Below, one piece after another: positions 4,482-29,141 of a stretch of DNA of 64,000 nucleotides. A program made the translations under genes and the position numbers. The notes under the pieces are model-generated. The model saw only the letters and a program-made list of their open reading frames with translations, had not been told where the DNA came from and ran no database searches. Location of the stretch: sequence record PZ445454.1, one strand, 5' to 3'. The DNA comes from a phage. Position 1 is the first letter of the stretch. Every line of letters begins with the position of its first letter.

Positions 4482-5585
4482 TTACTCATAATCCCTAATA
4501 ACTAGTCCGACAGGGAACTGTAAAGAACCCTTACGAGTCATCTTCTGGAACTGAACCGTTAAAGGCTTCCCGATAAACTCATCAGGATGCTCAGCAAGAT
4601 ACTGTTTCTTCTCATGAGTAGTCTTCCATGAGACATCTACAAAGACGTTAGGAAGAGTCTCTACAACGAACTTACCATGACCACGTTTATCGGTCTTTAC
4701 ACCAGTCACTTTAAACTCTTCAGTGTGCATCTTCTTGTGCTTAATCAAGAAGTATGAACGGTGACCACACTCATAGAAGGAGTCTTCAGAGATTGAACGG
4801 TACATTGCACCTTCAAACTTGGCTTCAACCCACTTATCATGAGCTTCATCAAACTCTTCCCAAGAATTTACACGACGAGATTTAACAGGGACAACTTTAC
4901 AGCCATCTCTAAAGTCATTCAATGGTGAAGTCTCAATAATATCTCTACGCTCAGGCCACGTTTTAGTACTGTCACAGATATCATACCAGTAGAACTTAAG
5001 TAAGTGTCTGTCAGGATTGTCTTCATTTTTAATCATGGAGACAATATCTTCTAAGTCCCACCCATGAGCATAAATCTCTCCATCAAATTCATCAACATCT
5101 TTGTGGAGCCTTAACATTGCCATAATGTCAGGTATTAGTTCAGTAGGGATTTTGTAAACAGTATTCTCACGAGAATATGCTGTAAATACACTGCCAATAC
5201 TTAAGTGTCTTGAAATTCTACAACGTACACCATCAAGTTTTGGTTGAGCATCAGCAGGGAACTTCAGATACTTTGCATGACTAACCTTTGCAGCGTCATG
5301 AGCAAGCTGTACACCTACCTTTTCAGTATTCTGTGCAGACTCTTTTGTGTAAGCATAACCTTTACGGTCAACTTGCTTTTTATACTTAGCAGCAACTTCA
5401 AAGAGAGCTTGCTGTTCAGCGTTACGCTCATTCTTTTTACCGATGTTTTTCGGTTCTGCTGTATACTCTTCAAACATCATCTTGCCATTTTCTTTACCGT
5501 AGGTTGTAATAACTTTGTCACCTACAGCAACGCATGACCAGACGTTAAAAGAGCCATCTTTATTTTGTTTGTACAGAATTGTCAT
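4482..5585 (-). CDS. ATP-dependent DNA ligase
   Basis: Nucleotidyltransferase motif I KLDGVRC and DGEIY motif; ORF track starts at 5621 but the internal Met at 5585 has a better RBS (AGAGGT). Confidence 0.65.
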   Translation of the reverse strand: MTILYKQNKDGSFNVWSCVAVGDKVITTYGKENGKMMFEEYTAEPKNIGKKNERNAEQQALFEVAAKYKKQVDRKGYAYTKESAQNTEKVGVQLAHDAAKVSHAKYLKFPADAQPKLDGVRCRISRHLSIGSVFTAYSRENTVYKIPTELIPDIMAMLRLHKDVDEFDGEIYAHGWDLEDIVSMIKNEDNPDRHLLKFYWYDICDSTKTWPERRDIIETSPLNDFRDGCKVVPVKSRRVNSWEEFDEAHDKWVEAKFEGAMYRSISEDSFYECGHRSYFLIKHKKMHTEEFKVTGVKTDKRGHGKFVVETLPNVFVDVSWKTTHEKKQYLAEHPDEFIGKPLTVQFQKMTRKGSLQFPVGLVIRDYE

Positions 5586-5778
5586 TTTTAACCTCTGAGT
5601 GATACCAAGTGTAACAAGCATTACATGCGTAAAGCTCTAAGTCATTTTTATCTGGTTTATGGAAACAGTTTGACCCACAACGACACCGGAATAGTTTACC
5701 ATCAACACGAAGAATGAATGTTTCAAGCTCACCATCTTCTGTAAGAACTGCGTTCTTAAGTTTATCTTCTACAGTCAT
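5560..5778 (-). CDS. small zinc-finger protein
   Basis: 72 aa; CRCGSNC...CNAC cysteine pairs. Confidence 0.45.
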   Translation of the reverse strand: MTVEDKLKNAVLTEDGELETFILRVDGKLFRCRCGSNCFHKPDKNDLELYACNACYTWYHSEVKNDNSVQTK

Positions 5779-6080
5779 TTTCTCTTACCACCAATCTCTA
5801 CGTCAATCACTTGAACATCACCAGCAACATCAAACTTATGAATGATGCTTTCCACAGTGTAAGTCCAACCCTCGATTCGAACCAACTCACCTTCTCGTGG
5901 GACGATTGGGTTACGTTGAGCTACGGTTGTAGTGGAGTGAACAACATCATAACAGTAGATATAGTTTACTAGGACTTCCATCTTGAAAACCTCACTCAAT
6001 AACAGTAGTGTGTGATTGACCATTTTTGCCATAGCTATAAGATGTTGTTGTTTGAGAGTTTGGGCATCTGACAACAACAA
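5775..6080 (-). CDS. hypothetical protein
   Basis: 101 aa ORF (non-ATG start in track); overlaps the next ORF. Confidence 0.35.
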   Translation of the reverse strand: MLLSDAQTLKQQHLIAMAKMVNHTLLLLSEVFKMEVLVNYIYCYDVVHSTTTVAQRNPIVPREGELVRIEGWTYTVESIIHKFDVAGDVQVIDVEIGGKRK

Positions 6081-6252
6081 TATCTCTGCTTATGGCATCA
6101 CCATGTAACTTATAGGCTCTGCAATCTTGCATCTCTGGTGGGAGGCTATAAGAAGCATTTTTGTCCTCGTAAGAGGGATTACAGCCAGATAGAAGGATAA
6201 CACTAAGCACAATTACTGCTTTCCACATAATACTTCTCCTATTACTGTTCAC
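5992..6252 (-). CDS. putative lipoprotein
   Basis: 86 aa; internal Met followed by WKAVIVLSVILLSGC lipobox-like signal. Confidence 0.4.
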   Translation of the reverse strand: MNSNRRSIMWKAVIVLSVILLSGCNPSYEDKNASYSLPPEMQDCRAYKLHGDAISRDIVVVRCPNSQTTTSYSYGKNGQSHTTVIE

Positions 6253-6414
6253 GATGTTCTACTTCTCTGTACGTTCGTCGATAGTTTATAATAAGCTGTG
6301 CTAACTCGTTGCTTTTAACACCTGAACGTAGAAGTTGCCAATCAAAACCTTTACCGACTCTTCCATACAAACTAAAGAATTTTACTTTGCGTTTCATTTT
6401 GGTATCTCCAATAC

Positions 6415-6642
6415 TCAGATGTCAATGCTAATACGTTCACCCTTAAGGACTCCTGTACGGTCCCTTGCAATCTTACCGTCAACAATAAGGATATGTGCAG
6501 ACCTTAAAGATTCGCCATTAAAAGCTTTTACGAACTTACAAGGCATTACCACAATAGACATCTCCTGAATCAACTCTGGAGTATAGCAATTGTCGTGAAG
6601 TTGCTGAATAACGTCTGCAAGTGTCATTTTTGATGTCTCCAA
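6415..6642 (-). CDS. hypothetical protein
   Basis: 75 aa ORF. Confidence 0.35.
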   Translation of the reverse strand: METSKMTLADVIQQLHDNCYTPELIQEMSIVVMPCKFVKAFNGESLRSAHILIVDGKIARDRTGVLKGERISIDI

Positions 6643-6833
6643 TACTCAATATCAATAAGTTCTTGTGCAATACTTTTCAGATTACCTTTCAAGAAAACCT
6701 TCTCAGAACCTGAAAGAGATGAATTGTCAATTAGCCTGTTCATTCTCTCAAACAACTTCTGCTTACGGTTCTTGATAGTTTCCTTTGAAGCACCTTTCAT
6801 CATCGCTGCATGGGTTCTTCCACGGTGGCTCAT
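6624..6833 (-). CDS. hypothetical protein
   Basis: 69 aa ORF, basic. Confidence 0.35.
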   Translation of the reverse strand: MSHRGRTHAAMMKGASKETIKNRKQKLFERMNRLIDNSSLSGSEKVFLKGNLKSIAQELIDIEYWRHQK

Positions 6834-6884
6834 AAGCCCTCCTATACAAGATATAGTATAAGGTACTCTTCCCTGAGCACCTTG

Positions 6885-7451
6885 TCAACTTAGTTTTGCA
6901 AACTCTCCGTGGAGTTTAATAGCAGCTTCACAGTAAGCTTTATGGGCTTCTTCAGGTGTGTCATAGTAGCCTAATGACATCTTTTTACCTTTATAGCTTA
7001 TTTGCGCAAGCCACCTACCAGACTTCTTCTTCAGGCTTACACCCTTATAGCCTGATTTATTGGTAGATAGTTTGCTTTTATTCCAAGCACTTTGGCAGTC
7101 ATCTGCTTCTCTTAAGTTTACAACCCTGTTATCAAGGGAGTCCCCATTAATATGGTCGATAACACCTCTCGGTAGCCTACCATACACGTACAGCCATGCG
7201 AGTCTGTGTGCTTTATGTGCTTTCTTGTCAAAATAGATAGTAATCTGCTTATGACCAGTTGAGTCAATCTGGATGCTCCCCGCTACCTGTCCTGCGTACT
7301 TACTATTAAAGACTTTAACAGCCCTTGAGTCACCCTCTCTACGAAGCCAAGTAAAGACCCCTGTTTCGGGGTCATAGTGTAGTAGCTCCTTTAAACGTTC
7401 TTGTGTAATCATTTTGTCACCATTAATGCACTTCCAACCACGATTTACCAA
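6885..7451 (-). CDS. HNH homing endonuclease with AP2-type DNA-binding domain
   Basis: 188 aa; HNH motif DHINGDSLDNRVVNLREADDCQSAWN plus AP2-like YKGVSLKKKSGRWLAQISYKGKKMSLGYYDTPEEAHKAY; immediately downstream of the DNA polymerase. Confidence 0.8.
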   Translation of the reverse strand: MVNRGWKCINGDKMITQERLKELLHYDPETGVFTWLRREGDSRAVKVFNSKYAGQVAGSIQIDSTGHKQITIYFDKKAHKAHRLAWLYVYGRLPRGVIDHINGDSLDNRVVNLREADDCQSAWNKSKLSTNKSGYKGVSLKKKSGRWLAQISYKGKKMSLGYYDTPEEAHKAYCEAAIKLHGEFAKLS

Positions 7452-10152
7452 CCTTGCCAGTACCAGTTACCAGTGTTTCACTCTTTAGTCCTAAGTTCTT
7501 AGAGGCTTGCCCGTAATACCAATCAGTGACAGCCTTCACCTCTGCCGTCATACTTTCTGGGCATTCCCAACTCGTCTCGTCGTGATAGGAGCACAATAAA
7601 CGAGCACCTATAGCTGGTTTGCGACCGTTCAACTTCATCAAACCTTCGTCAATCATACGACGGCAAGCAAGGTTAATTGCCTCGTTCTGAATCTGACTTT
7701 CCGAACCCATGAGCAAATAATTCAATAACTTATGTGGAGATTTACACCACAACCAAGCTCCAGCAACCTTTACAAAACCCCCTTTAGAGATTGCAGCAGT
7801 CTTACCAAACACCTCTTCAAGTGCCTTTTTAGTTGCTTTGTAGTCAGCTTCCAAGTCATCTAACAGCTTCTTAATTTTAGGTAAACGAATAAAGTAAGTC
7901 TGTTTAGTCAGTGCGCCTTCCTGAGTAGTTGCAGCTTTAATCGTCTTAGCAAACTTCTCATCCCCTGCACCGAACAGTAGTGCATAGATACCATTCTTAG
8001 CTTTCTTACGACCTTTGCTAATCTCATGAAGAAGACTCTCATCCTGAGTAGCTCGACAAGTCAAGATGTCCTGCTCATCATTCAAGCTAAAGTAAATACT
8101 GTTCAGGGTGTGTGCATCAGTCCCTGAATAGACAACGTACAGGTCATTCTCAGAGTCATAGTGAAGGTACTTATCAATCTCTGGGTTGAGATACTCATCG
8201 AAGTGTTTGCAGTAATAGCGTCCATCTTCTTGACGAGTAAACTCAATTTCTTCTTTACCTTGCGTTACCGCTTTGGTGAAATCTTTATCACCCATAAAGT
8301 TACAAAGAAGAACTAACTGGGCTGAGTTCATGTCTACAGAGACAACGTTAGTACCTTCCTCACAAATCCACACTGCCCTCATTGGTTCCCCATAGACAGC
8401 AGCACCAGACGGTACGTTTACAATACCATATTGTGTCATACGTCCAGTTGAAGTACCAAACACCATTGCACCAGCACTAAGGCGACCATCAGGACGAATC
8501 TGGTTCAACCAACCTTTTTCATCATCCTTTGAGTTCTCAATAGTTCTGCGTCTGTGCATCAAAGTGTAGTATTTCGCAATCTTCTGTCCAAGCTCACCTT
8601 CAATCGTATCATAAGATGATTCAGTAAGTTTTGGTGAAGTACGGATTAAGCAAGGCTCAAGCAAATCTGTGTACTTCTTCACAGACCAGTTATGCTCAAT
8701 GTACTGTACACCTTCATGTTCAACATAACTCAAGCCACACCGCTCAACCATTTCCTGCCACTTAGGATGTTTTGTAATCATCTTTTTATTGTCTTTGAAA
8801 CGACAAACTTTGACAGGGCGACCATCAGAGTCTTTCTTGTAGTTCCAGTCATCTGGAATCCAACCAACTGATTTCAAGTAGTCTTTAACAACTGCTACCT
8901 GAGTCATACGAGAAACTTCAAACTCAATTGGTGTATACGGTGCATCAATCAAACCTGTGTAGCGACTTGACTCAAGTTCAAAGTGGTTAACAACGTGACT
9001 GTTATAATACTTCACAGTTTTAACTGTTTTTACTGGCTTCCAATCTTTGCATTTCTTACCCATCTTTGCATTCAACTCATTGCAAATTGCACGAGCATCC
9101 TTCATTGCTACAAAACCTTCCTTGTACTCTTCACCAGTTACAGTGTTGGTTGGTGTATAGCAATTCCTTTTTTCAATGTTAAAAATCTTTGTAGTTGGCT
9201 TACCAAATGGCTTGATTTCATATGTTTGCATCTCACCATTACGTACCTGCTGACGATACTTTGTCTTAGGGTACTTGGTAATTCTTTTCAGTCCATCTGC
9301 ATGACCAAATGTTTCAACATACTCATTCCAAGCTTTTGCAAACTCTTCTCCAGTGACTTTACCTTTGGTCTTAATAGTTGGAGGAAGATGTGGTTCAACC
9401 TCTGAAGCAAGCTCATTAGTCAACTTGTCAAGTTCCTTTACATGGAACTCCATAAGCTCTTTATCAGCTTTCCAACCATTAATAGCTTGTTGACTCATCC
9501 AGAAAGATGTTTCTTTAGCTCGCATGTAGGTTTCATAAGTATCTATACCACACTTCTTAAGCTTGAGATATTCATTATCAAGTGCCCGTTTAGTTTTGGC
9601 GTTAATACGAATATCTTCTACAACACGAGTGAAGATTTCTGCATTCCACACACCCCAATGCTCAATCTCTGGTTTACGAACACCAACACGAGCACCCCAT
9701 GCAGCCAAACCATGAGCACCTTTATAACCCTTTGGAGTTGGTCTATCCATCCACTGAACACGAGACTGGATAAGAGAGTCCTGAAAGAAATTACTCCACG
9801 GTTTACACTTTGGATTATCAAAGTTCCATAAATCCGGTGCAATGTGATTGAAAACCCACCAGTCATAACCGAGGCCATTATGGATACAAAGACGTTTTGC
9901 CTTTAACGCAAACTCAATACCTTCACGTAAACCACCCTTAATGTACTTAGTGTACTTGTGACCGAGGATAGGCTCATCTGTAAAGACCCATACAGGCGGC
10001 TCTTCATCGTCAGATTTATAGTCTGCAAAGGCCATTACGTGAACTTTAGTGAACTCAAGGAGTAAACCATCAGTTTCTGTATCACCAACCAAATGTAAGT
10101 TTTTAAAATCTACGTTTTCCATTTTTACTCCCTCTAAAACCATTAACCTCAT
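7423..10152 (-). CDS. DNA polymerase, family A, with 3'-5' exonuclease domain
   Basis: 909 aa; N-terminal exonuclease motif GDTETDGL; C-terminal motif-C-like YHDE; size and context fit a phage Pol I-type polymerase. Confidence 0.9.
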   Translation of the reverse strand: MRLMVLEGVKMENVDFKNLHLVGDTETDGLLLEFTKVHVMAFADYKSDDEEPPVWVFTDEPILGHKYTKYIKGGLREGIEFALKAKRLCIHNGLGYDWWVFNHIAPDLWNFDNPKCKPWSNFFQDSLIQSRVQWMDRPTPKGYKGAHGLAAWGARVGVRKPEIEHWGVWNAEIFTRVVEDIRINAKTKRALDNEYLKLKKCGIDTYETYMRAKETSFWMSQQAINGWKADKELMEFHVKELDKLTNELASEVEPHLPPTIKTKGKVTGEEFAKAWNEYVETFGHADGLKRITKYPKTKYRQQVRNGEMQTYEIKPFGKPTTKIFNIEKRNCYTPTNTVTGEEYKEGFVAMKDARAICNELNAKMGKKCKDWKPVKTVKTVKYYNSHVVNHFELESSRYTGLIDAPYTPIEFEVSRMTQVAVVKDYLKSVGWIPDDWNYKKDSDGRPVKVCRFKDNKKMITKHPKWQEMVERCGLSYVEHEGVQYIEHNWSVKKYTDLLEPCLIRTSPKLTESSYDTIEGELGQKIAKYYTLMHRRRTIENSKDDEKGWLNQIRPDGRLSAGAMVFGTSTGRMTQYGIVNVPSGAAVYGEPMRAVWICEEGTNVVSVDMNSAQLVLLCNFMGDKDFTKAVTQGKEEIEFTRQEDGRYYCKHFDEYLNPEIDKYLHYDSENDLYVVYSGTDAHTLNSIYFSLNDEQDILTCRATQDESLLHEISKGRKKAKNGIYALLFGAGDEKFAKTIKAATTQEGALTKQTYFIRLPKIKKLLDDLEADYKATKKALEEVFGKTAAISKGGFVKVAGAWLWCKSPHKLLNYLLMGSESQIQNEAINLACRRMIDEGLMKLNGRKPAIGARLLCSYHDETSWECPESMTAEVKAVTDWYYGQASKNLGLKSETLVTGTGKVGKSWLEVH

Positions 10153-15990: not shown

Positions 15991-17031
15991 ATGGAGAAGT
16001 ACACATTAACAAAGCTTCCCGATTCAGTTACACATGTCTTTATTGACTCTGACAGCATTGCCTATAAAGGTGCTTGTGTAGTTGAGAAAGCAAAGTATAA
16101 ATACGTTAATAAACTCACAGCAGAAGAATCTGAACCATTTGATAATGCGAAAGATGCTGCAAGATGGTTAGCAGACCAGAGAATCCTTGTGGAAGAGCTT
16201 GGCCTGACATTTGATGAAGATGAATGGGAAAGACAAACTTGGAAAGAAGCTAAGAGTGAAAAAGAAGCTATCATGGCTACTCAACAGGTTCTTCAGGAAT
16301 GGCTTAAGGTTGTTGGTAAAGAAAGAACTTGGGTGGGTTATTTAACAGAGAAAGGTGTGCATAAACATAAAGACATTAAAGGTCTTGAGCACCAATATCA
16401 AGGTAACCGTAAAGATGCTGTCACACCAACACACTTAGTCGCTTGTCGTGAATACCTTTTATCCAGACCAGAGTTCAAGCTCTTAAAGGGAGGCTTCGAA
16501 GCCGATTCAATCGTAATTGCTAAAGCTGAAAAGATGGGTAAGAAGGCTGCTCTTATGAGTATTGACAAAGACCTTCGACAAGCTGAAGGAACTTATTGTA
16601 TTGATATGACTTATGAAAAATCACCACTAATCTTTATTGCTGATAATAATGTTGGTGATATCTGGGATTGTCCTATCAAATCAAAACCAAAAGCTGCAAA
16701 AACAGTTGGTGTAGGTTTTAAATTCTTGTGCTATCAGGCTGTTGCTGGAGATAATGCAGACAACTACTTTGGCCTTAAAGGTGCTGGTAAAGTAGCTGTG
16801 ATGAATGCTTTAGATGGCAAAGAGACATACAAAGAGTGTCTTGATGCTATCTATGAACTCTATGCTAAAAAAGACTCTTACACCTATGTATCATGGGATG
16901 GACAGACAGTTACAAAGACACCGTTAGAGTTAATGGAACAGCATTTCTGGATAGCTTATCAAGAAAGAAATCCAAAAGATAATTTCTCTTTTAAGAAATA
17001 TAATTGGGAGCCACGTATGAATGAAGATTAA
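15991..17031 (+). CDS. 5'-3' exonuclease / flap endonuclease (RNase H-like)
   Basis: 346 aa; N-terminal VFIDSDSIAY and H3TH motif AGDNADNYFGLKGAGKVAV. Confidence 0.75.
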   Translation: MEKYTLTKLPDSVTHVFIDSDSIAYKGACVVEKAKYKYVNKLTAEESEPFDNAKDAARWLADQRILVEELGLTFDEDEWERQTWKEAKSEKEAIMATQQVLQEWLKVVGKERTWVGYLTEKGVHKHKDIKGLEHQYQGNRKDAVTPTHLVACREYLLSRPEFKLLKGGFEADSIVIAKAEKMGKKAALMSIDKDLRQAEGTYCIDMTYEKSPLIFIADNNVGDIWDCPIKSKPKAAKTVGVGFKFLCYQAVAGDNADNYFGLKGAGKVAVMNALDGKETYKECLDAIYELYAKKDSYTYVSWDGQTVTKTPLELMEQHFWIAYQERNPKDNFSFKKYNWEPRMNED

Positions 17032-17518
17032 AGGATTTGGCAATTGCCCCACCTATGGTCATTGGGTATCTTTATGTGGGGAAGTTGACCCCACTAAACA
17101 TTTTGGTTTTGTCTATTTAGTACACTGTAAGAAAACCGGACAATATTATATCGGAAAGAAACAGCTTAATAGTGTGACTAAAAGAAAAGTTGCTGGCAAG
17201 ACTCGGAAGAAGGTAGTCACTAAGGAGAGTGATTGGATGACTTATGAAACTTCTTCTGAGTATATTAAAAAAGATATTGAGAGCTTTGGAAAAGAATTTT
17301 TTGACTTTTACATTATTCAGACCTACTACACGAAAGGTGGCCTAGTTTATGGTGAAGCAAACCTCCAACATAAATTCGATGTAATGACAAAAAGGATTGA
17401 CTCTAAGCTCAGACTCTTCTACAATGCCAATATTGCAGCAATTAAGTTTATCACTAAAGAAACTTATGAAGATGCTGAAAAAAGAATCCATAAGGTAATG
17501 AAAGCAAACTGCGCTTGA
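17021..17518 (+). CDS. hypothetical protein, possible GIY-YIG nuclease fold
   Basis: 165 aa; FVYLVHCKKTGQYYIGKK resembles a GIY-YIG motif; weak. Confidence 0.35.
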   Translation: MKIKGFGNCPTYGHWVSLCGEVDPTKHFGFVYLVHCKKTGQYYIGKKQLNSVTKRKVAGKTRKKVVTKESDWMTYETSSEYIKKDIESFGKEFFDFYIIQTYYTKGGLVYGEANLQHKFDVMTKRIDSKLRLFYNANIAAIKFITKETYEDAEKRIHKVMKANCA

Positions 17519-23307: not shown

Positions 23308-24504
23308 ATGAACAAAGTACAGATTATTAAAAAGAATGGCTCACTCGAAGAACCTGATATCAAAAAAGTTTTAGCAGCAGTCACAAAGTCAGCTAATAGG
23401 GTTGGGTATAGAGAACTCCCACCAGATGTTACCCAAGCTCTTGAGTCAGCATTTATGAGGATTCTGGTAAAATCCACTAAGCAGAATAACTTGCTCATCT
23501 CGGTAAATGATATCCACAGTATCGTTGAAGGTGCTTTGGCAGAAGTCAATCACGAGATTTATGAGTCTTACTCAACATACAGAAATTACCGTAAAGAGGT
23601 TGCTCAAAATTGGGATGAACTCTACCAGAAGACTAAAGATACACTCTTCTTAGGTGACCGTGAAAATGCTAACTTTGACAGTAGTTTAATTTCTACGAAA
23701 GGTTCAATTATCCGTGGTTACCTGACTAAAGAAATCTTTAAACAGTATCATCTAACACCAGAGGAACTTGAAGCCATTGAGAAAGGCTTTATCTATATCC
23801 ACGATTTGAGAGACCTGATTTTTGGTGGTATTAACTGTTGCCTGTTTGACATTGGTAAAGTCCTGAAAGGTGGCTTTGAAATGTCTGGCATCGAATATTG
23901 TGAACCAAAGTCTGTGCTGTCGGCCTTACAGGTTATTGGTGACGTAGTTCTTTCAGCAACTGCACAGCAATTTGGTGGCTTTACTTTAGCAGAGATTGAT
24001 AAGGTACTTGTGCCGTATGCTAAGAAGTCTCTACGCTACCATGCTGAGAAAGCAGCATCTTATGGTATTCCTAAAGAACATTACCATAATTATGTCATGG
24101 AGCAGCTACAGCTTGAATTGACTCAAGGTTTTCAATCACTTGAAATGAAACTAAACACTGTACCTTGTAGCCGTGGGGATTTTGCATTCACAACTTTGAC
24201 ATTTGGTTTACTTGACTCAGATATGTCTAATGAAGACAACCGGCTACAATACATGATTGCAAGTACTCTCCTAGATGTTCGTATGAATGGACAAGGTAAG
24301 AGCAAGAAGCCTGTTGTATTCCCTAAACTGGTTTATATCTATGACCAGAAGAGACATGATGAAAATATCTGTCAAGGTCACCTGTACAGTAAAGCCATTG
24401 AGTGCTGCTCTAAAGCAATGTATCCAGATTTCTTAAGTGTATCTGGTCATGGTGCTGTAGCAGAGGCTTTTGAGCGTTCTGGTAAGGTTATTTCACCGAT
24501 GGGT
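23308..24504 (+). CDS. nrdD: anaerobic ribonucleotide reductase, exon 1
   Basis: ORF ends ...SPMG then stop; the stop lies in the intron; continuation CRAFLSPY...GRANIGAVSLNLP found in frame at 25247. Confidence 0.8.
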
Positions 24505-25246
24505 TAACAGGCTCTATAGCTCATCTAAAACGTGCCTAAACAGGGAAACTCTACAGATGTAGACAATCCTGTGCTAAATGATGTAAGATGTAAGAAACTA
24601 TATAACATAGGAGTATTACATGCCAAATTATCATGTTACTGAAGACGGAAGAGTCTTTAGAGAAAATGGTGTAGAGCTTACACAGTGGAAATCCAACACT
24701 GGGTATATGAAAGTAAAGTTTTACGGTAAGAAGAATCGTGACATGTATGTCCATAGGTTAGTTGCTGAGAAATATGTACCTAACCCAAACAATCTTCCAA
24801 TTGTAAAACACAAAGATGATAACAAACTGAACAACCATGCTTCTAACTTAGAATGGGGAACTCATTCTGAGAATGTTAAAGAAGGTTATGAGAACGGTTG
24901 CTACAAGTTTTGTAAGCGTTCATATGCTGTGAAGGCTACACACAAAGTGACAAAAGAAGTTATTGCTGCCAAGTCAATACGAGAGTTATCCAATATACTC
25001 GGATATAATCGCAAGACTATCTCTTCAATATTGAAGGGTGTAAAAGAGCATAATAACTTTGAACATGAATTTGAATACATCTAAATGCCGAACGACTAAC
25101 CGTGATGAATGTAGCGGTGTAGGGTCAAGCGACTCGAAATGGTACGCTACTTAGAAATAAGTAGAAGATATAGTCTGGACTTACTGGTGACAGTAAGCAG
25201 CTTGGATAAAGCGGGGTAAGCGTAGCGAACTTGCCTGAACAACAAG
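24505..25246 (+). mobile_element. group I self-splicing intron interrupting nrdD, carrying an HNH homing endonuclease ORF
   Basis: 5' exon ends in T, intron ends in G; 5' region (CTAAACAGGGAAACTCT...GTAGACAATCCTGTGCTAAAT) resembles the T4 td/nrdD intron core as I recall it; ORF in a peripheral loop. Confidence 0.8.
24620..25084 (+). CDS. HNH homing endonuclease (intron-encoded)
   Basis: 154 aa; HKDDNKLNNHASNLEWGTHSEN HNH motif. Confidence 0.8.
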   Translation: MPNYHVTEDGRVFRENGVELTQWKSNTGYMKVKFYGKKNRDMYVHRLVAEKYVPNPNNLPIVKHKDDNKLNNHASNLEWGTHSENVKEGYENGCYKFCKRSYAVKATHKVTKEVIAAKSIRELSNILGYNRKTISSILKGVKEHNNFEHEFEYI

Positions 25247-26194
25247 TGTAGAGCATTTTTATCACCATACCATAACGAAGATGGTGAAGAGTTTTATGTA
25301 GGTCGTGCTAACATTGGTGCTGTGTCTTTGAACTTACCAATGATTTACCAGTATTCTAAAGAGAATGGTTTAGATTTCTGGAAAGAGCTTGATAAGTACC
25401 TAGAGATGATTCGTAGTTTCCACAAGAAACGCTATGAAATGATTGCCAATATGCCAGCAAGTTCTAACCCTCTTGCATTTACACAAGGTGGTCTGTACAA
25501 AGGAACTAAGAAGCCTACTGACAGGGTTGGTTGGGATATTGTGAAGTCCTTCACAGCTTCTTTTGGGGTTACTGCGCTTGATGAGCTATCTGTTCTTGCT
25601 GAAGGTAAACGACTTCATGAAGTTGGAAGTTATAGTTTTGCATATGATGTTCTGGCATACATCAACATGAAAACTGAAGAGTTTAAAAATGAAGATGGCT
25701 TCTTATATGCCGTCTATGGTACTCCAGCAGAATCACTTTGTGGAACTCAGCTAAAACAGTTCAGAGAAATGTTTGGTGTTATCAAAGGTGTTTCTGATAA
25801 GGAATATTTTACAAACAGTTTCCATATGAATGTTGCAGCAGACATCTCACCATTTGAGAAGCAGGACTTAGAAGAACCATTCTTCCATATCTGTAGAGGT
25901 GGCAGAATCCAGTATGTAAGGGTAGCTAACCCAGAAAACTTAACAGCACTTAAAAGTTGTATTACAAGAGGGATGTTGAAAGGTTTTTATCAGGGACTTA
26001 ACTTTGACTTAGCAATCTGTGAACATTGTGGTAACAGACCAAAGGCTGATGTCGAAGAATGTGAGGTTTGCCATTCACATGATATCTCTGTGATTAACAG
26101 GGTGTGCGGATATCTGGGATGGACTAAGATTAAAGGTGAATCCCGAATGAATGATGCAAAAATCGCTGAGATTCGTGACAGGATTTCTATGTAA
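25247..26194 (+). CDS. nrdD: anaerobic ribonucleotide reductase, exon 2
   Basis: C-terminal Cys cluster CEHCG...CEVC and glycyl-radical motif RVCGYLG; ORF track 25322..26194 but the frame is open from 25247. Confidence 0.8.
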   Translation, partial: CRAFLSPYHNEDGEEFYVGRANIGAVSLNLPMIYQYSKENGLDFWKELDKYLEMIRSFHKKRYEMIANMPASSNPLAFTQGGLYKGTKKPTDRVGWDIVKSFTASFGVTALDELSVLAEGKRLHEVGSYSFAYDVLAYINMKTEEFKNEDGFLYAVYGTPAESLCGTQLKQFREMFGVIKGVSDKEYFTNSFHMNVAADISPFEKQDLEEPFFHICRGGRIQYVRVANPENLTALKSCITRGMLKGFYQGLNFDLAICEHCGNRPKADVEECEVCHSHDISVINRVCGYLGWTKIKGESRMNDAKIAEIRDRISM

Positions 26195-28625: not shown

Positions 28626-29141
28626 ATGTATCTGTCAAACCTAAAACGTTCTGCTGCAATGTCAGTGCTAAGACTCAGCTTTGAGGAACGTCAAGAGTTC
28701 ATTGACTCCCACCAATACGACCCTTCTAACTCCAATCACATGATTCTCTGGAATCGTGGCAGTACTCGTGAAAGAGCACTATTCCGTTACTACCCGCATT
28801 ACACCATAGATAACCTGTATGAGTGTTTTGTTGTGAAGAACACCATTACAGTACTCAATAAACTTTGCAGATACACAGGTAGTCAATCCTTCACATTAGG
28901 CCACCACAAACCTGTTACAAAGGGTGGTGAGCATCACTGTGCAAACTGGTTTATCCAGACTAAACTTGATAACCAGAAGCAAGGGGATAACCTTCTAAGC
29001 ACACCTAAGATGACCTATGAAGAGCAAGAGAAATATATCAAAAATAATATGCCAGGTGTGCTTGACAACAACTATACAGATTTGGCAATATCTCTCCTGT
29101 TGAAGTTCGAGACAGTTTATAGGGCAACTTACAATGGCTAA
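28626..29141 (+). CDS. HNH endonuclease-like protein
   Basis: 171 aa; GHHKPVTKGGEHHCANW...N motif. Confidence 0.45.
   Translation: MYLSNLKRSAAMSVLRLSFEERQEFIDSHQYDPSNSNHMILWNRGSTRERALFRYYPHYTIDNLYECFVVKNTITVLNKLCRYTGSQSFTLGHHKPVTKGGEHHCANWFIQTKLDNQKQGDNLLSTPKMTYEEQEKYIKNNMPGVLDNNYTDLAISLLLKFETVYRATYNG

What the first reader, a model, noticed from the sequence alone, without database searches (positions are those of the whole stretch)
6885..7451. Multiple homing-endonuclease-type genes, including one abutting the DNA polymerase
An HNH-AP2 endonuclease sits directly downstream of, and slightly overlapping, the family A polymerase. With the intron-borne HNH in nrdD, another HNH-like ORF at 28626 and a possible GIY-YIG at 17021, the replication module is a hotspot for selfish nucleases that can drive marker exclusion between related phages.
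Basis: partly seen in the sequence, partly recalled or inferred. Interest (0 to 1): 0.45.

Follow-up and report, generated by a model that had tools for sequence, protein, structure and literature searches.

The report
Free-standing HNH-AP2 homing endonuclease after polymerase
A small selfish nuclease gene sits just after the DNA polymerase gene of this Felix O1-like phage; about 40% of related phages lack it and others carry a different version, which is the ordinary, already-described behaviour of phage homing endonuclease genes.

Summary
The window comes from a Felixounavirus (Felix O1-like myophage). The ORF at 6885..7451(-) is real: Pfam HNH_3 (6.5e-14) plus AP2 (1.7e-13). Its likely start is ATG 7412, 10 nt after the stop of the family A polymerase, so the "slight overlap" comes from choosing an upstream TTG.

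Population data show a free-standing, mobile homing endonuclease gene (HEG):
- Of 257 related records, 104 have a precise empty junction and 153 are occupied.
- Occupied sites carry four divergent HNH-AP2 lineages (41-56% aa identity). All are intact and under purifying selection (dN/dS 0.04-0.23).
- Occupancy is uncoupled from the backbone 1 kb away.
- Differences from near-identical empty-site phages cluster, mostly synonymously, in the last 60 nt of pol.
- Carriers share co-conversion-like tracts.

Of the other claims:
- The nrdD HNH really is intron-borne: a 742-nt group I intron whose splicing restores a NrdD colinear with intronless Felix O1.
- The GIY-YIG ORF (17021) and ORF 28626 are near-universal core genes with no sign of mobility.

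This is a known kind. Near-identical genes are already annotated as homing endonucleases, and HNH-AP2 HEGs beside polymerase genes are published. Cleavage, target site and marker exclusion remain untested.

The parts
6885..7412 (-). HNH-AP2 homing endonuclease gene (175 aa, ATG 7412 to TGA 6887-6885), allele lineage 'A1'
   Evidence: Pfam HNH_3 and AP2; PHROG_99; 98.9% aa identical to the annotated 'putative HNH homing endonuclease' of phage dune; same CDS length annotated in VpaE1_ev78, Sf13 and SP22.
7104..7214 (-). HNH_3 nuclease domain (aa 67-103), motif D86-H87-x-N-G-D...N99-L-R...N111
   Evidence: The motif DH.[ND]G[DN]..[ND]N...NLR is conserved in 21 of 22 occupied loci across all four lineages.
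6906..7055 (-). AP2 DNA-binding domain (aa 120-169)
   Evidence: Pfam AP2 1.7e-13; phmmer hits to WRI1, TEM1 and ERF structures. The last ~25 aa / ~80 nt are identical or nearly so in all four lineages.
7413..7422 (-). 10-nt spacer between the pol stop and the HEG ATG, carrying a GGTGA Shine-Dalgarno-like sequence; no promoter of its own
   Evidence: Read from the sequence. No sigma70-like site on this strand near the start.
6889..7421 (-). Inserted segment relative to empty-site phages (~533 nt, replacing TAGTA of the empty junction TAA-TTAGTA-TTGACA; boundaries +/-1-2 nt)
   Evidence: Junction comparison with Ro111lw, EC6, typing phage 8 and mio, and with 17 empty loci in all.
7423..7482 (-). 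Last 60 nt of pol: recoded (mostly synonymous) tract linked to the HEG; candidate target or immunity region
   Evidence: AAA TCG TGG TTG GAA GTG CAT in five A1-body carriers (window, VpaE1_ev78, SUSP1, SUSP2, SP22) against AAA AGC TGG CTT GAA GTA CAC in most empty sites; the recombinant CECAV_041 is the exception, with an A2-type pol end. Clustering of differences: mio 15/60 against 40/1440, p=6e-10; L021 8/60 against 46/1440, p=1e-3.
7423..10152 (-). Family A DNA polymerase gene (909 aa), uninterrupted in this phage
   Evidence: PF00476. Relatives carry an insertion between codons 724|725, which is window 7981|7980.
7423..8400 (-). About 1 kb of the pol 3' end that exists as highly divergent haplotypes in otherwise 96-100% identical backbones
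   Evidence: CECAV_041, bumzen and REP12 are 63-80% identical here but 96-100% identical beyond 8400. Felix O1-type sequences are 40-88% identical.
6834..6888 (-). Conserved intergenic element (TTGACAAGGTGCTCAGGGAAGAGTACCTTATACTATATCTTGTATAGGAGG) ahead of the downstream small genes; the HEG stop TGA overlaps its TTGACA
   Evidence: Present in 257 phage records, 28 IMG/VR contigs, and unique in the window. A promoter function is inferred only; the consensus scan did not flag it.
6624..6833 (-). Downstream 69-aa gene (phrog_5180, function unknown), itself variable among relatives
   Evidence: The downstream bins become non-homologous in many loci.
24505..25246 (+). Group I intron in nrdD (742 nt)
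   Evidence: Rfam Intron_gpI 38.9 bits, E=4e-8, below the gathering score. The 3' core is ~70% identical to T-even td introns. Joining 24504|25247 gives a 714-aa NrdD colinear with intronless Felix O1 NrdD (701/715). EC6 has a 316-nt ORF-less intron at the same site.
24620..25084 (+). Intron-encoded HNH_3 (+weak NUMOD1) endonuclease, 154 aa
   Evidence: Pfam HNH_3 2.6e-10; PHROG_59 8.6e-44.
17021..17518 (+). GIY-YIG-domain ORF (165 aa): a conserved core gene, not a mobile HEG
   Evidence: SegE_GIY-YIG 9.4e-28. At least 80% covered in 261 of 297 records, one place each, including Erwinia phages at ~68% identity.
28626..29141 (+). Conserved ORF (171 aa, phrog_3500) with only a weak HNH-like motif: a core gene
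   Evidence: No Pfam hit; phrog_2214 HNH 3.8e-4; at least 80% covered in 240 of 269 records.

Best explanation
The ORF 6885..7412(-) is a free-standing homing endonuclease gene of the HNH_3-AP2 type. It lies in the 6-nt gap between the stop codon of the family A DNA polymerase gene and a conserved intergenic element.

Proposed mechanism:
1. The gene is probably transcribed with pol; it has its own Shine-Dalgarno-like sequence but no promoter of its own (inferred).
2. In a cell co-infected by a relative that lacks it or carries a different allele, the protein binds DNA through its AP2 domain. It then nicks or cuts through its HNH (beta-beta-alpha-metal) site, in or near the 3' end of the other phage's pol gene (inferred).
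3. Recombinational repair from the HEG-bearing genome copies in the HEG together with a variable length of adjacent pol sequence (co-conversion).
4. The carrier's own pol 3' end is recoded, mostly synonymously, and interrupted by the insert, which would protect it from self-cleavage (inferred).

Shown here: domain content, exact insertion site, presence/absence and multi-allele polymorphism, purifying selection, uncoupling from the backbone, and co-conversion-like tracts.

Inferred: catalytic activity, nick versus double-strand break, the target site, and homing or marker exclusion in vivo.
For: - Domains: HNH_3 and AP2 above the Pfam cut-offs, PHROG_99, AP2/ERF structures.
- Exact empty site: TAA-TTAGTA-TTGACA in 17 of 38 sampled loci and in 104 of 257 GenBank phage records. 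Only 57 records carry this allele lineage at >=80% coverage.
- Four homologous but divergent lineages (A, B, C, D; 41-56% aa identity) occupy the identical site with catalytic motifs kept.
- All 22 occupied loci have intact ORFs, and dN/dS is 0.04-0.23 within lineages.
- State is scattered against distal pol sequence (8450-9050). The window (A1) is 1.5% from an allele-C phage. An allele-D phage is 0.0% from an empty one. An allele-B phage is 0.7% from an empty one.
- Differences between the window and near-identical empty-site phages cluster in the last 60 nt of pol (Fisher p down to 6e-10) and are mostly synonymous.
- A1 carrier SUSP2 shares the last 270 nt of pol (7 differences) but not the next 330 nt (34 differences).
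- A1 and A2 HEGs differ by dS ~0.5, whereas the adjacent pol 3' end is saturated (dS >3).
- CECAV_041 has an A1 HEG body (94-99% identity) next to a pol 3' kb that is only 63-79% identical, with a crossover inside the HEG.
- The family is very widespread and multi-copy in phages: 2688 records, 4242 places.
- Published context: Felix O1 has six HNH genes (PMC3185647). HNH-AP2 HEGs are often beside polymerase genes, with unstable HEG content at cognate loci and HEGs at boundaries of exchange (PMC10448857).
Against: - No cleavage, nicking or homing was measured, and no member of this Felixounavirus lineage was found to be biochemically characterised in the library searched.
- The patterns (mosaicism, divergent flank, allele replacement) could also arise from ordinary homologous recombination in a variable region without endonuclease help.
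- Strong purifying selection and long residence at one site (A1 against A3 dS ~1.3, similar to the flanking pol) also fit a gene that benefits the phage rather than a purely selfish element.
- The link between the recoded pol end and the A1 allele is not absolute (CECAV_041).
- The conserved empty-site codon pattern may partly reflect shared ancestry of the empty-site phages.
Confidence: 0.8

Rival explanations
1. Domesticated accessory gene. The HNH-AP2 protein serves the phage, for example as an AP2-type DNA-binding regulator of the adjacent conserved intergenic element and downstream small genes, or as a nuclease aimed at competitors or host DNA. It would spread only by ordinary recombination, not by homing.
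For: - Purifying selection in every lineage and no decayed copies among 22 loci.
- The stop codon overlaps the conserved intergenic element, and all lineages keep an identical C-terminal AP2 helix.
- The A1/A3 divergence is similar to that of the flanking pol.
- Precedent from established knowledge: I-TevI doubles as an autorepressor.
Against: - 40% of relatives do without any gene at this site while keeping the intergenic element intact, so no essential regulatory role.
- The DNA-contacting AP2 beta-sheet residues differ between lineages, whereas the intergenic element is invariant.
- Catalytic HNH residues are retained.
- Flank patterns are those expected of break-induced co-conversion.
Confidence: 0.12
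2. Passive passenger in a recombination hotspot. The nuclease is no longer active or never targets this locus. The presence/absence and allele mosaic simply reflect frequent homologous exchange of a hypervariable region downstream of pol, bounded by conserved pol sequence and the conserved intergenic element.
For: - The small genes downstream of the intergenic element are also variable.
- A crossover lies inside the HEG in CECAV_041.
- A 1-kb divergent pol block also occurs in phages whatever their HEG body.
- A second mobile element site lies 555 nt upstream in relatives and could be the real driver.
Against: - dN/dS of 0.04-0.23 and conserved catalytic motifs argue against an inactive relic.
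- Differences concentrate exactly at the HEG-proximal 60 nt of pol.
- The empty junction is identical across many lineages with no scar.
Confidence: 0.08
3. The nuclease is intron- or intein-encoded, as part of the polymerase gene.
For: Relatives do carry an intron-like element inside pol. HNH nucleases in polymerase introns are known (SPO1/SP82 I-HmuI/II, established knowledge).
Against: - The pol ORF ends with the same ...GKVGKSWLEVH* as in empty-site phages, before the insert.
- The HEG is in a different reading unit after the stop.
- Rfam finds no intron here at the gathering threshold.
- The insert is essentially just ORF plus RBS.
Confidence: 0.01

Closest known systems
Felix O1 ORF95 / NP_944955.1 'HNH endonuclease' and the annotated 'HNH homing endonuclease' genes of other Felixounavirus/Mooglevirus genomes (dune, SP22, SUSP1/2, Sf13)
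   Same: - Same intergenic site after the pol stop and before the same conserved element.
- Same HNH_3-AP2 architecture and identical C-terminal 25 aa.
- The dune protein is 98.9% identical to the window protein.
   Different: - Felix O1 itself carries lineage B: 167 aa, 48% aa identity, overlapping pol by 19 nt, with a strongly diverged pol C-terminus.
- The window carries lineage A1.
T4 free-standing HEGs SegF, SegG and MobE ('intronless homing', localized marker exclusion, co-conversion from a nearby cleavage site); established knowledge, reviewed in Edgell, Gibb & Belfort 2010 (cited in PMC8300805)
   Same: - An intergenic ORF inserted between conserved genes.
- Sporadic distribution among relatives.
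- Expected cleavage in the neighbouring conserved gene of the HEG-less phage.
- Co-conversion of flanking markers.
   Different: - Seg proteins are GIY-YIG enzymes; MobE is HNH but without AP2.
- Those activities are experimentally shown, whereas here they are inferred from comparative patterns only.
I-HmuI / I-HmuII of Bacillus phages SPO1 / SP82 (HNH nickases in DNA polymerase gene introns; competition between variants; Goodrich-Blair & Shub 1996, own knowledge)
   Same: - HNH-family enzyme associated with a phage DNA polymerase gene.
- Different variants at the same site in related phages, with linked divergent exon sequence.
- This gives a model for allele-against-allele competition.
   Different: - Those are intron-encoded and use other DNA-binding modules.
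- The window gene is free-standing with an AP2 domain.
- phmmer did not retrieve I-HmuI.
HNH-AP2 endonuclease family (Magnani, Sjolander & Hake 2004, cited as ref. 45 in PMC10448857) and ICP1 'IPA-HNH' HEGs / HEG-islands (Barth, Dunham & Seed 2023, PMC10448857)
   Same: - N-terminal HNH plus C-terminal AP2.
- Frequent placement next to DNA polymerase genes (29% of IPA-HNH).
- Unstable HEG content at cognate loci, with HEGs sitting at boundaries of genetic exchange.
- An essential gene segment bracketed by two HEG sites.
   Different: - IPA-HNH were defined as too divergent to hit Pfam HNH_3.
- The window protein hits HNH_3 clearly, so it is the classical HNH_3-AP2 type.

Membership tests
HNH (beta-beta-alpha-metal) endonuclease, Pfam HNH_3 PF13392 | Profile match above the curated gathering score | tested here: met
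   51.7 bits against 24.8, aa 67-103.
HNH (beta-beta-alpha-metal) endonuclease, Pfam HNH_3 PF13392 | Catalytic His and the conserved Asn residues of the H-N-N motif | tested here: met
   D86-H87...N99-L-R...N111. The motif is conserved in 21 of 22 homologues at this locus. The residue roles are assigned by analogy.
HNH (beta-beta-alpha-metal) endonuclease, Pfam HNH_3 PF13392 | Metal-dependent DNA nicking or cleavage | not testable with these tools
   Needs biochemistry.
AP2 DNA-binding domain PF00847 | Profile match above the gathering score and similarity to solved AP2/ERF domains | tested here: met
   51.0 bits against 33.3; 7wq5 E=2.3e-7, 7et4, 5wx9.
Free-standing homing endonuclease gene | Located between genes, not inside an intron or intein | tested here: met
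   The insert lies between the pol stop and the conserved intergenic element. Pol ends identically in empty-site phages. No intron model hit at this site.
Free-standing homing endonuclease gene | Sporadic presence/absence at a precise site among close relatives | tested here: met
   104 empty against 153 occupied of 257 records; 17 of 38 sampled loci empty, with identical junctions.
Free-standing homing endonuclease gene | Distribution incongruent with the host genome (horizontal spread) | tested here: met
   Nearest neighbours by distal pol carry different states. The HEG is more similar than its flank.
Free-standing homing endonuclease gene | Co-conversion of flanking sequence | tested here: inconclusive
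   Patterns fit: SUSP2 has 7 differences in 270 nt against 34 in the next 330 nt, and differences cluster in the last 60 nt. Recombination without cleavage could give similar tracts.
Free-standing homing endonuclease gene | Cleaves the HEG-less cognate allele and is inherited super-Mendelianly in mixed infection | not testable with these tools
   Requires in vitro cleavage mapping and phage crosses.
ICP1-like IPA-HNH HEGs (PMC10448857) | HNH domain too divergent for the Pfam HNH_3 profile, paired with AP2 | tested here: not met
   The window protein hits HNH_3 at 6.5e-14. It has the same architecture but is not a member of this subgroup.
Group I intron with intron-encoded HNH (the nrdD element in the finding) | Group I core structure | tested here: inconclusive
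   Rfam RF00028 38.9 bits, E=4e-8, below the gathering score of 50. The 3' core is ~70% identical to T-even td introns.
Group I intron with intron-encoded HNH (the nrdD element in the finding) | Removal restores an uninterrupted conserved ORF; 5' exon ends in U and intron ends in G; ORF-less and intron-less alleles exist | tested here: met
   Joining 24504|25247 gives SPMG|CRAFL and a 714-aa NrdD, 701/715 identical to intronless Felix O1. EC6 has a 316-nt ORF-less intron. Only 60 records carry >=80% of the full 742-nt intron; others, such as EC6, match only part of it.
Mobile GIY-YIG HEG (claim for ORF 17021) | Sporadic distribution among relatives | tested here: not met
   Present in 261 of 297 records at >=80% coverage, one place per record, and conserved even in Erwinia phages. 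The GIY-YIG domain itself is present.
HNH HEG (claim for ORF 28626) | Recognisable HNH domain and sporadic distribution | tested here: not met
   No Pfam hit, only phrog_2214 at 3.8e-4. Present in 240 of 269 records.

The most novel reading that the evidence does not exclude
The pol-proximal site may be a multi-allelic HEG battleground.
- Four HNH-AP2 lineages have diverged DNA-contacting AP2 sheets, and each is linked to a differently recoded or diverged polymerase C-terminal segment.
- They may cut one another's pol variants, as I-HmuI and I-HmuII do, as well as the empty site.
- In relatives, an intron-like element with an Endonuclease VII ORF interrupts pol at codon 724|725.
- Together the two sites would make the last 186 codons of an essential polymerase a mobile 'HEG island' whose diversification is driven by nuclease competition rather than by polymerase function.
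Probability: 0.3. Interest if true: 0.5.

Novelty: already known. Interest (0 to 1): 0.3.

Why it matters
- For annotation: this gene and the nrdD intron ORF are the two real mobile nucleases in the window. The GIY-YIG ORF at 17021 and ORF 28626 should not be called homing endonucleases.
- For phage genomics and therapy-phage engineering: the pol 3' end of Felixounaviruses is a recombination and gene-conversion boundary. It is a poor phylogenetic marker and a place where mixed infections will reshuffle genomes.
- As an experimental system: 104 natural empty sites, four natural alleles and easy E. coli K-12 hosts would make this a convenient system for testing HNH-AP2 specificity and allele competition. 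That would extend known biology rather than reveal a new kind of element.

Tried and rejected
- VpaE1_ev78 as an experimentally evolved derivative of VpaE1 that had gained the HEG. Rejected: the '_ev' phages appear to be natural VpaE1-like isolates from the infant-faeces coliphage study PMC6969025 (matched by the search; the paper itself was not opened). VpaE1 itself is simply an empty-site phage (L033).
- An RNA hairpin sequestering the HEG ribosome-binding site, as in T4 HEG regulation. The fold of 7380-7480(-) is no better than shuffles (z=+1.57).
- A dedicated sigma70-like promoter for the HEG. None found on the minus strand near its start. The conserved downstream element was not flagged either, so its promoter role stays an inference. 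It is not a repeated motif in the window.
- An intron or intein reading for the pol-adjacent gene. Rejected by the junction comparison and Rfam.
- Other HEGs in ten further ORFs of 170-265 aa, including two in the tRNA region. None had nuclease domains.
- Similarity to I-HmuI by sequence. Not retrieved by phmmer against the PDB.
- Magnani et al. 2004 could not be read because the paper is not held. It is cited only via PMC10448857 and from my own knowledge.
- Structure prediction and the large protein-database searches were not run. Domain assignment was already unambiguous, and they could not settle activity or target.

Full report
**What the window is.** Megablast of 5500-9500 finds 261 phage records, nearly all Felixounavirus or Mooglevirus (Felix O1-like myophages of Escherichia, Salmonella, Shigella and Citrobacter). 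The best matches are ~96% identical. The region holds a replication and nucleotide-metabolism module:
- ATP-dependent ligase (4482..5621) and family A polymerase (7423..10152);
- dNMP kinase, primase-helicase, NrdA, NrdB, NrdD and NrdG.

**The observation.** The ORF 6885..7451(-) exists.
- It carries HNH_3 (aa 67-103, 6.5e-14) and AP2 (aa 120-169, 1.7e-13), both above the Pfam cut-offs.
- It matches PHROG_99 'HNH endonuclease' at 1.2e-72, and its AP2 part matches solved plant AP2/ERF domains.
- The 188-aa form starts at a TTG inside pol. The better model is ATG 7412: a GGTGA lies 5 nt upstream, the ATG is 10 nt after the pol stop, and it gives the 528-nt CDS annotated in relatives.
- Homology to phages lacking the gene continues through the pol stop, so the upstream in-frame extension is polymerase DNA. 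The 'slight overlap' is therefore not supported for this allele. It is real for the Felix O1 allele, which overlaps pol by 19 nt.

**The insertion site.** In gene orientation, phages without the gene read ...GAA GTA CAC TAA TTAGTA TTGACAAGGTGCTCA.... The window reads ...GAA GTG CAT TAA TGGTGACAAA ATG [HEG] ...AAA CTA AGT TGA CAAGGTGCTCA.... About 533 nt, essentially a Shine-Dalgarno sequence plus the ORF, replaces 5 nt between the pol stop and a conserved ~55-nt intergenic element. The HEG stop overlaps the TTGACA of that element. No intron model matches here, and pol ends with the same residues with or without the insert. This is a free-standing gene, not an intron or intein ORF.

**Population survey.**
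- A 60-nt query spanning the empty junction finds the intergenic element in 257 phage records. In 104 the junction is contiguous (empty); in 153 only the downstream half matches (occupied).
- Only 57 records carry this allele lineage at >=80% coverage.
- I classified 38 loci by the distance from the pol stop to TTGACA: ten GenBank loci plus 28 IMG/VR loci. Seventeen are empty (5-6 nt). The rest have 481, 508, 519/531 or 533/534 nt.
- These correspond to four homologous HNH-AP2 lineages: A (window; sub-types A1, A2, A3), B (Felix O1), C and D. They are 41-56% identical in protein between lineages.
- All lineages share an identical C-terminal ~25 aa and a near-identical last ~80-146 nt. A and C also share the N-terminal ~22 aa. 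The predicted DNA-contacting AP2 strands differ between lineages.

**Is the gene functional?** All 22 occupied loci have intact ORFs, and 21 of 22 keep the DH..G..N...NLR motif. Within-lineage dN/dS is 0.04-0.23. The gene is under purifying selection and is not a decaying relic.

**Evidence for mobility.**
1. The state is uncoupled from the backbone. Using pol 8450-9050 as a marker:
   - the window (A1) is closest (1.5%) to an allele-C phage;
   - an allele-D contig is identical (0.0%) to an empty one;
   - an allele-B contig is 0.7% from an empty one.
2. Differences from near-identical empty-site phages pile up next to the HEG. For mio there are 15 differences in the last 60 nt of pol against 40 in the preceding 1440 nt (Fisher p=6e-10). 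For L021 the counts are 8 against 46 (p=1e-3). Four other empty phages give p<=1e-4. At most two amino-acid changes fall in the last 20 codons.
3. Five A1-body carriers (window, VpaE1_ev78, SUSP1, SUSP2, SP22) read AAA TCG TGG TTG GAA GTG CAT; the recombinant CECAV_041 is the exception. Most empty sites read AAA AGC TGG CTT GAA GTA CAC.
4. Among A1 carriers with different backbones, sequence next to the HEG is shared. SUSP2 has 7 differences in the last 270 nt of pol and 34 in the next 330 nt.
5. The HEG can be far more similar than its flank:
   - A1 against A2 has dS ~0.5, while the adjacent pol 3' end is saturated;
   - vB_CECAV_041 has a 94-99% identical HEG body beside a pol 3' kb of only 63-79% identity;
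   - identity returns to 96-100% beyond window position 8400;
   - its crossover lies inside the conserved 5' part of the HEG.

These are the signatures expected of homing with co-conversion and of allele replacement. They do not prove endonuclease involvement.

**Mechanism proposed.** The HEG is co-transcribed with pol; no promoter or regulatory hairpin was detected. In mixed infection the protein would recognise, through AP2, and nick or cut, through HNH, the pol 3' end or junction of phages with an empty or heterologous site. Repair would copy the HEG and adjacent pol sequence. The carrier would be protected by the insertion and the recoded last codons. This follows the established behaviour of T4 SegF/SegG/MobE and of SPO1/SP82 I-HmuI/II (own knowledge). 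It also matches the description of HNH-AP2 HEGs next to polymerase genes and at boundaries of genetic exchange (PMC10448857). Activity, cut type, target and marker exclusion are all inferred.

**The other nucleases in the finding.**
- **nrdD intron: confirmed.**
  - nrdD is split into 23308..24507 and 25322..26194, with an HNH_3 (+weak NUMOD1) ORF at 24620..25084 between them.
  - Rfam's group I model matches 24912..25197 at 38.9 bits (E=4e-8, below gathering), with a second partial hit.
  - The 3' core is ~70% identical to T-even td introns.
  - Joining 24504|25247 (U before the 5' splice site, G at the intron end) gives a 714-aa NrdD colinear with, and 701/715 identical to, intronless Felix O1 NrdD.
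  - EC6 has a 316-nt ORF-less intron at the same site. Only 60 records carry >=80% of the full 742-nt intron; others, such as EC6, match only part of it.
  - Felix O1 was reported to lack introns (PMC3185647).
- **ORF 17021..17518: not mobile.** It does have a SegE-type GIY-YIG domain (9.4e-28). However, it is present once each in 261 of 297 matching records, including Erwinia phages. It is a fixed core gene.
- **ORF 28626..29141: not mobile.** It has no Pfam domain and only a weak PHROG HNH similarity, and it is present in 240 of 269 records.
- Ten further mid-sized ORFs showed no nuclease domains.

**Comparison with what is known.**
- Felix O1's six HNH genes were described in 2010 (PMC3185647).
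- The HNH-AP2 family, including a Felix O1 protein, dates from Magnani et al. 2004. This is from my own knowledge and from the citation in PMC10448857; the paper itself could not be read.
- The window protein is 98.9% identical to a GenBank protein already annotated as a putative HNH homing endonuclease.
- The family occurs in 2688 phage records, often several times per genome.
- The object is therefore already known in kind and in sequence.
- I did not find an explicit description, in the library searched, of the four-lineage occupancy of one site or of the linked recoding of the polymerase C-terminus in Felixounaviruses. That is a modest, testable extension.

**Verdict.** This is a real, ordinary, well-behaved free-standing HNH-AP2 homing endonuclease gene. 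Interest 0.3.

Noticed in passing
window 7980|7981 (pol codons 724|725); L003 2448-3252, L010 3060-3327, L033 2683-3462, L013 2605-3405: In EC6, REP12, VpaE1 and Si3 the polymerase gene is interrupted exactly between codons 724 and 725 of the window's pol, by a 268-805-nt element. The EC6 copy encodes an Endonuclease VII-type ORF (Pfam 5.9e-20) and gives a weak group I intron hit (22.9 bits). The REP12 copy has no annotated CDS in the 268-nt gap. The window's pol is uninterrupted, so its last 186 codons lie between two mobile-element sites.
   Followed up: partly
window 7423-8400: A block of about 1 kb at the 3' end of pol is only 63-80% identical in CECAV_041, bumzen and REP12, and 40-88% identical in Felix O1-type phages. 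Sequence beyond 8400 and downstream of the HEG is 96-100% identical. The boundary is sharp.
   Followed up: partly
L041 (vB_CECAV_041) versus window 7380-7425: A recombinant HEG. It has an A2-type pol end and an A2-type first ~30 nt of the HEG, then switches to A1-type sequence inside the conserved RLKELLHYDPETGVFTW-coding stretch.
   Followed up: yes
window 6400-6833 and the corresponding parts of L003, L006, L009, L018: The small genes just downstream of the conserved intergenic element are themselves variable. The 69-aa gene 6624..6833 (phrog_5180) is missing, replaced or duplicated in EC6, typing phage 8, mio and SUSP2. The ~55-nt intergenic element therefore acts as a conserved linker between two variable stretches.
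   Followed up: no
window 25247-25276 versus L040 (Felix O1 nrdD): The first ~30 nt of nrdD exon 2 differ from intronless Felix O1 at several, mostly synonymous, positions right next to the intron insertion site. This is the same kind of pattern seen at the pol/HEG junction.
   Followed up: no
window 58577-63553: A cluster of 23 tRNA genes, all on the + strand, with two DUF-family ORFs (61638..62195 DUF7338; 62584..63381 DUF7217) embedded in it.
   Followed up: no
window 7414-7419 and 6882-6887: The hexamer TGACAA occurs as a direct repeat at both borders of the HEG insert in the window. It is absent at the 5' border of the A2 allele, so it is probably chance.
   Followed up: partly
VpaE1, Sf14 and EcSzw-2 records (one search hits H206, H207, H213): Other Felixounaviruses carry a 40-44% identical HNH-AP2 paralogue next to the exodeoxyribonuclease gene. 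This insertion site looks unoccupied in the window: 15991..17031 is followed directly by the GIY-YIG ORF.
   Followed up: no
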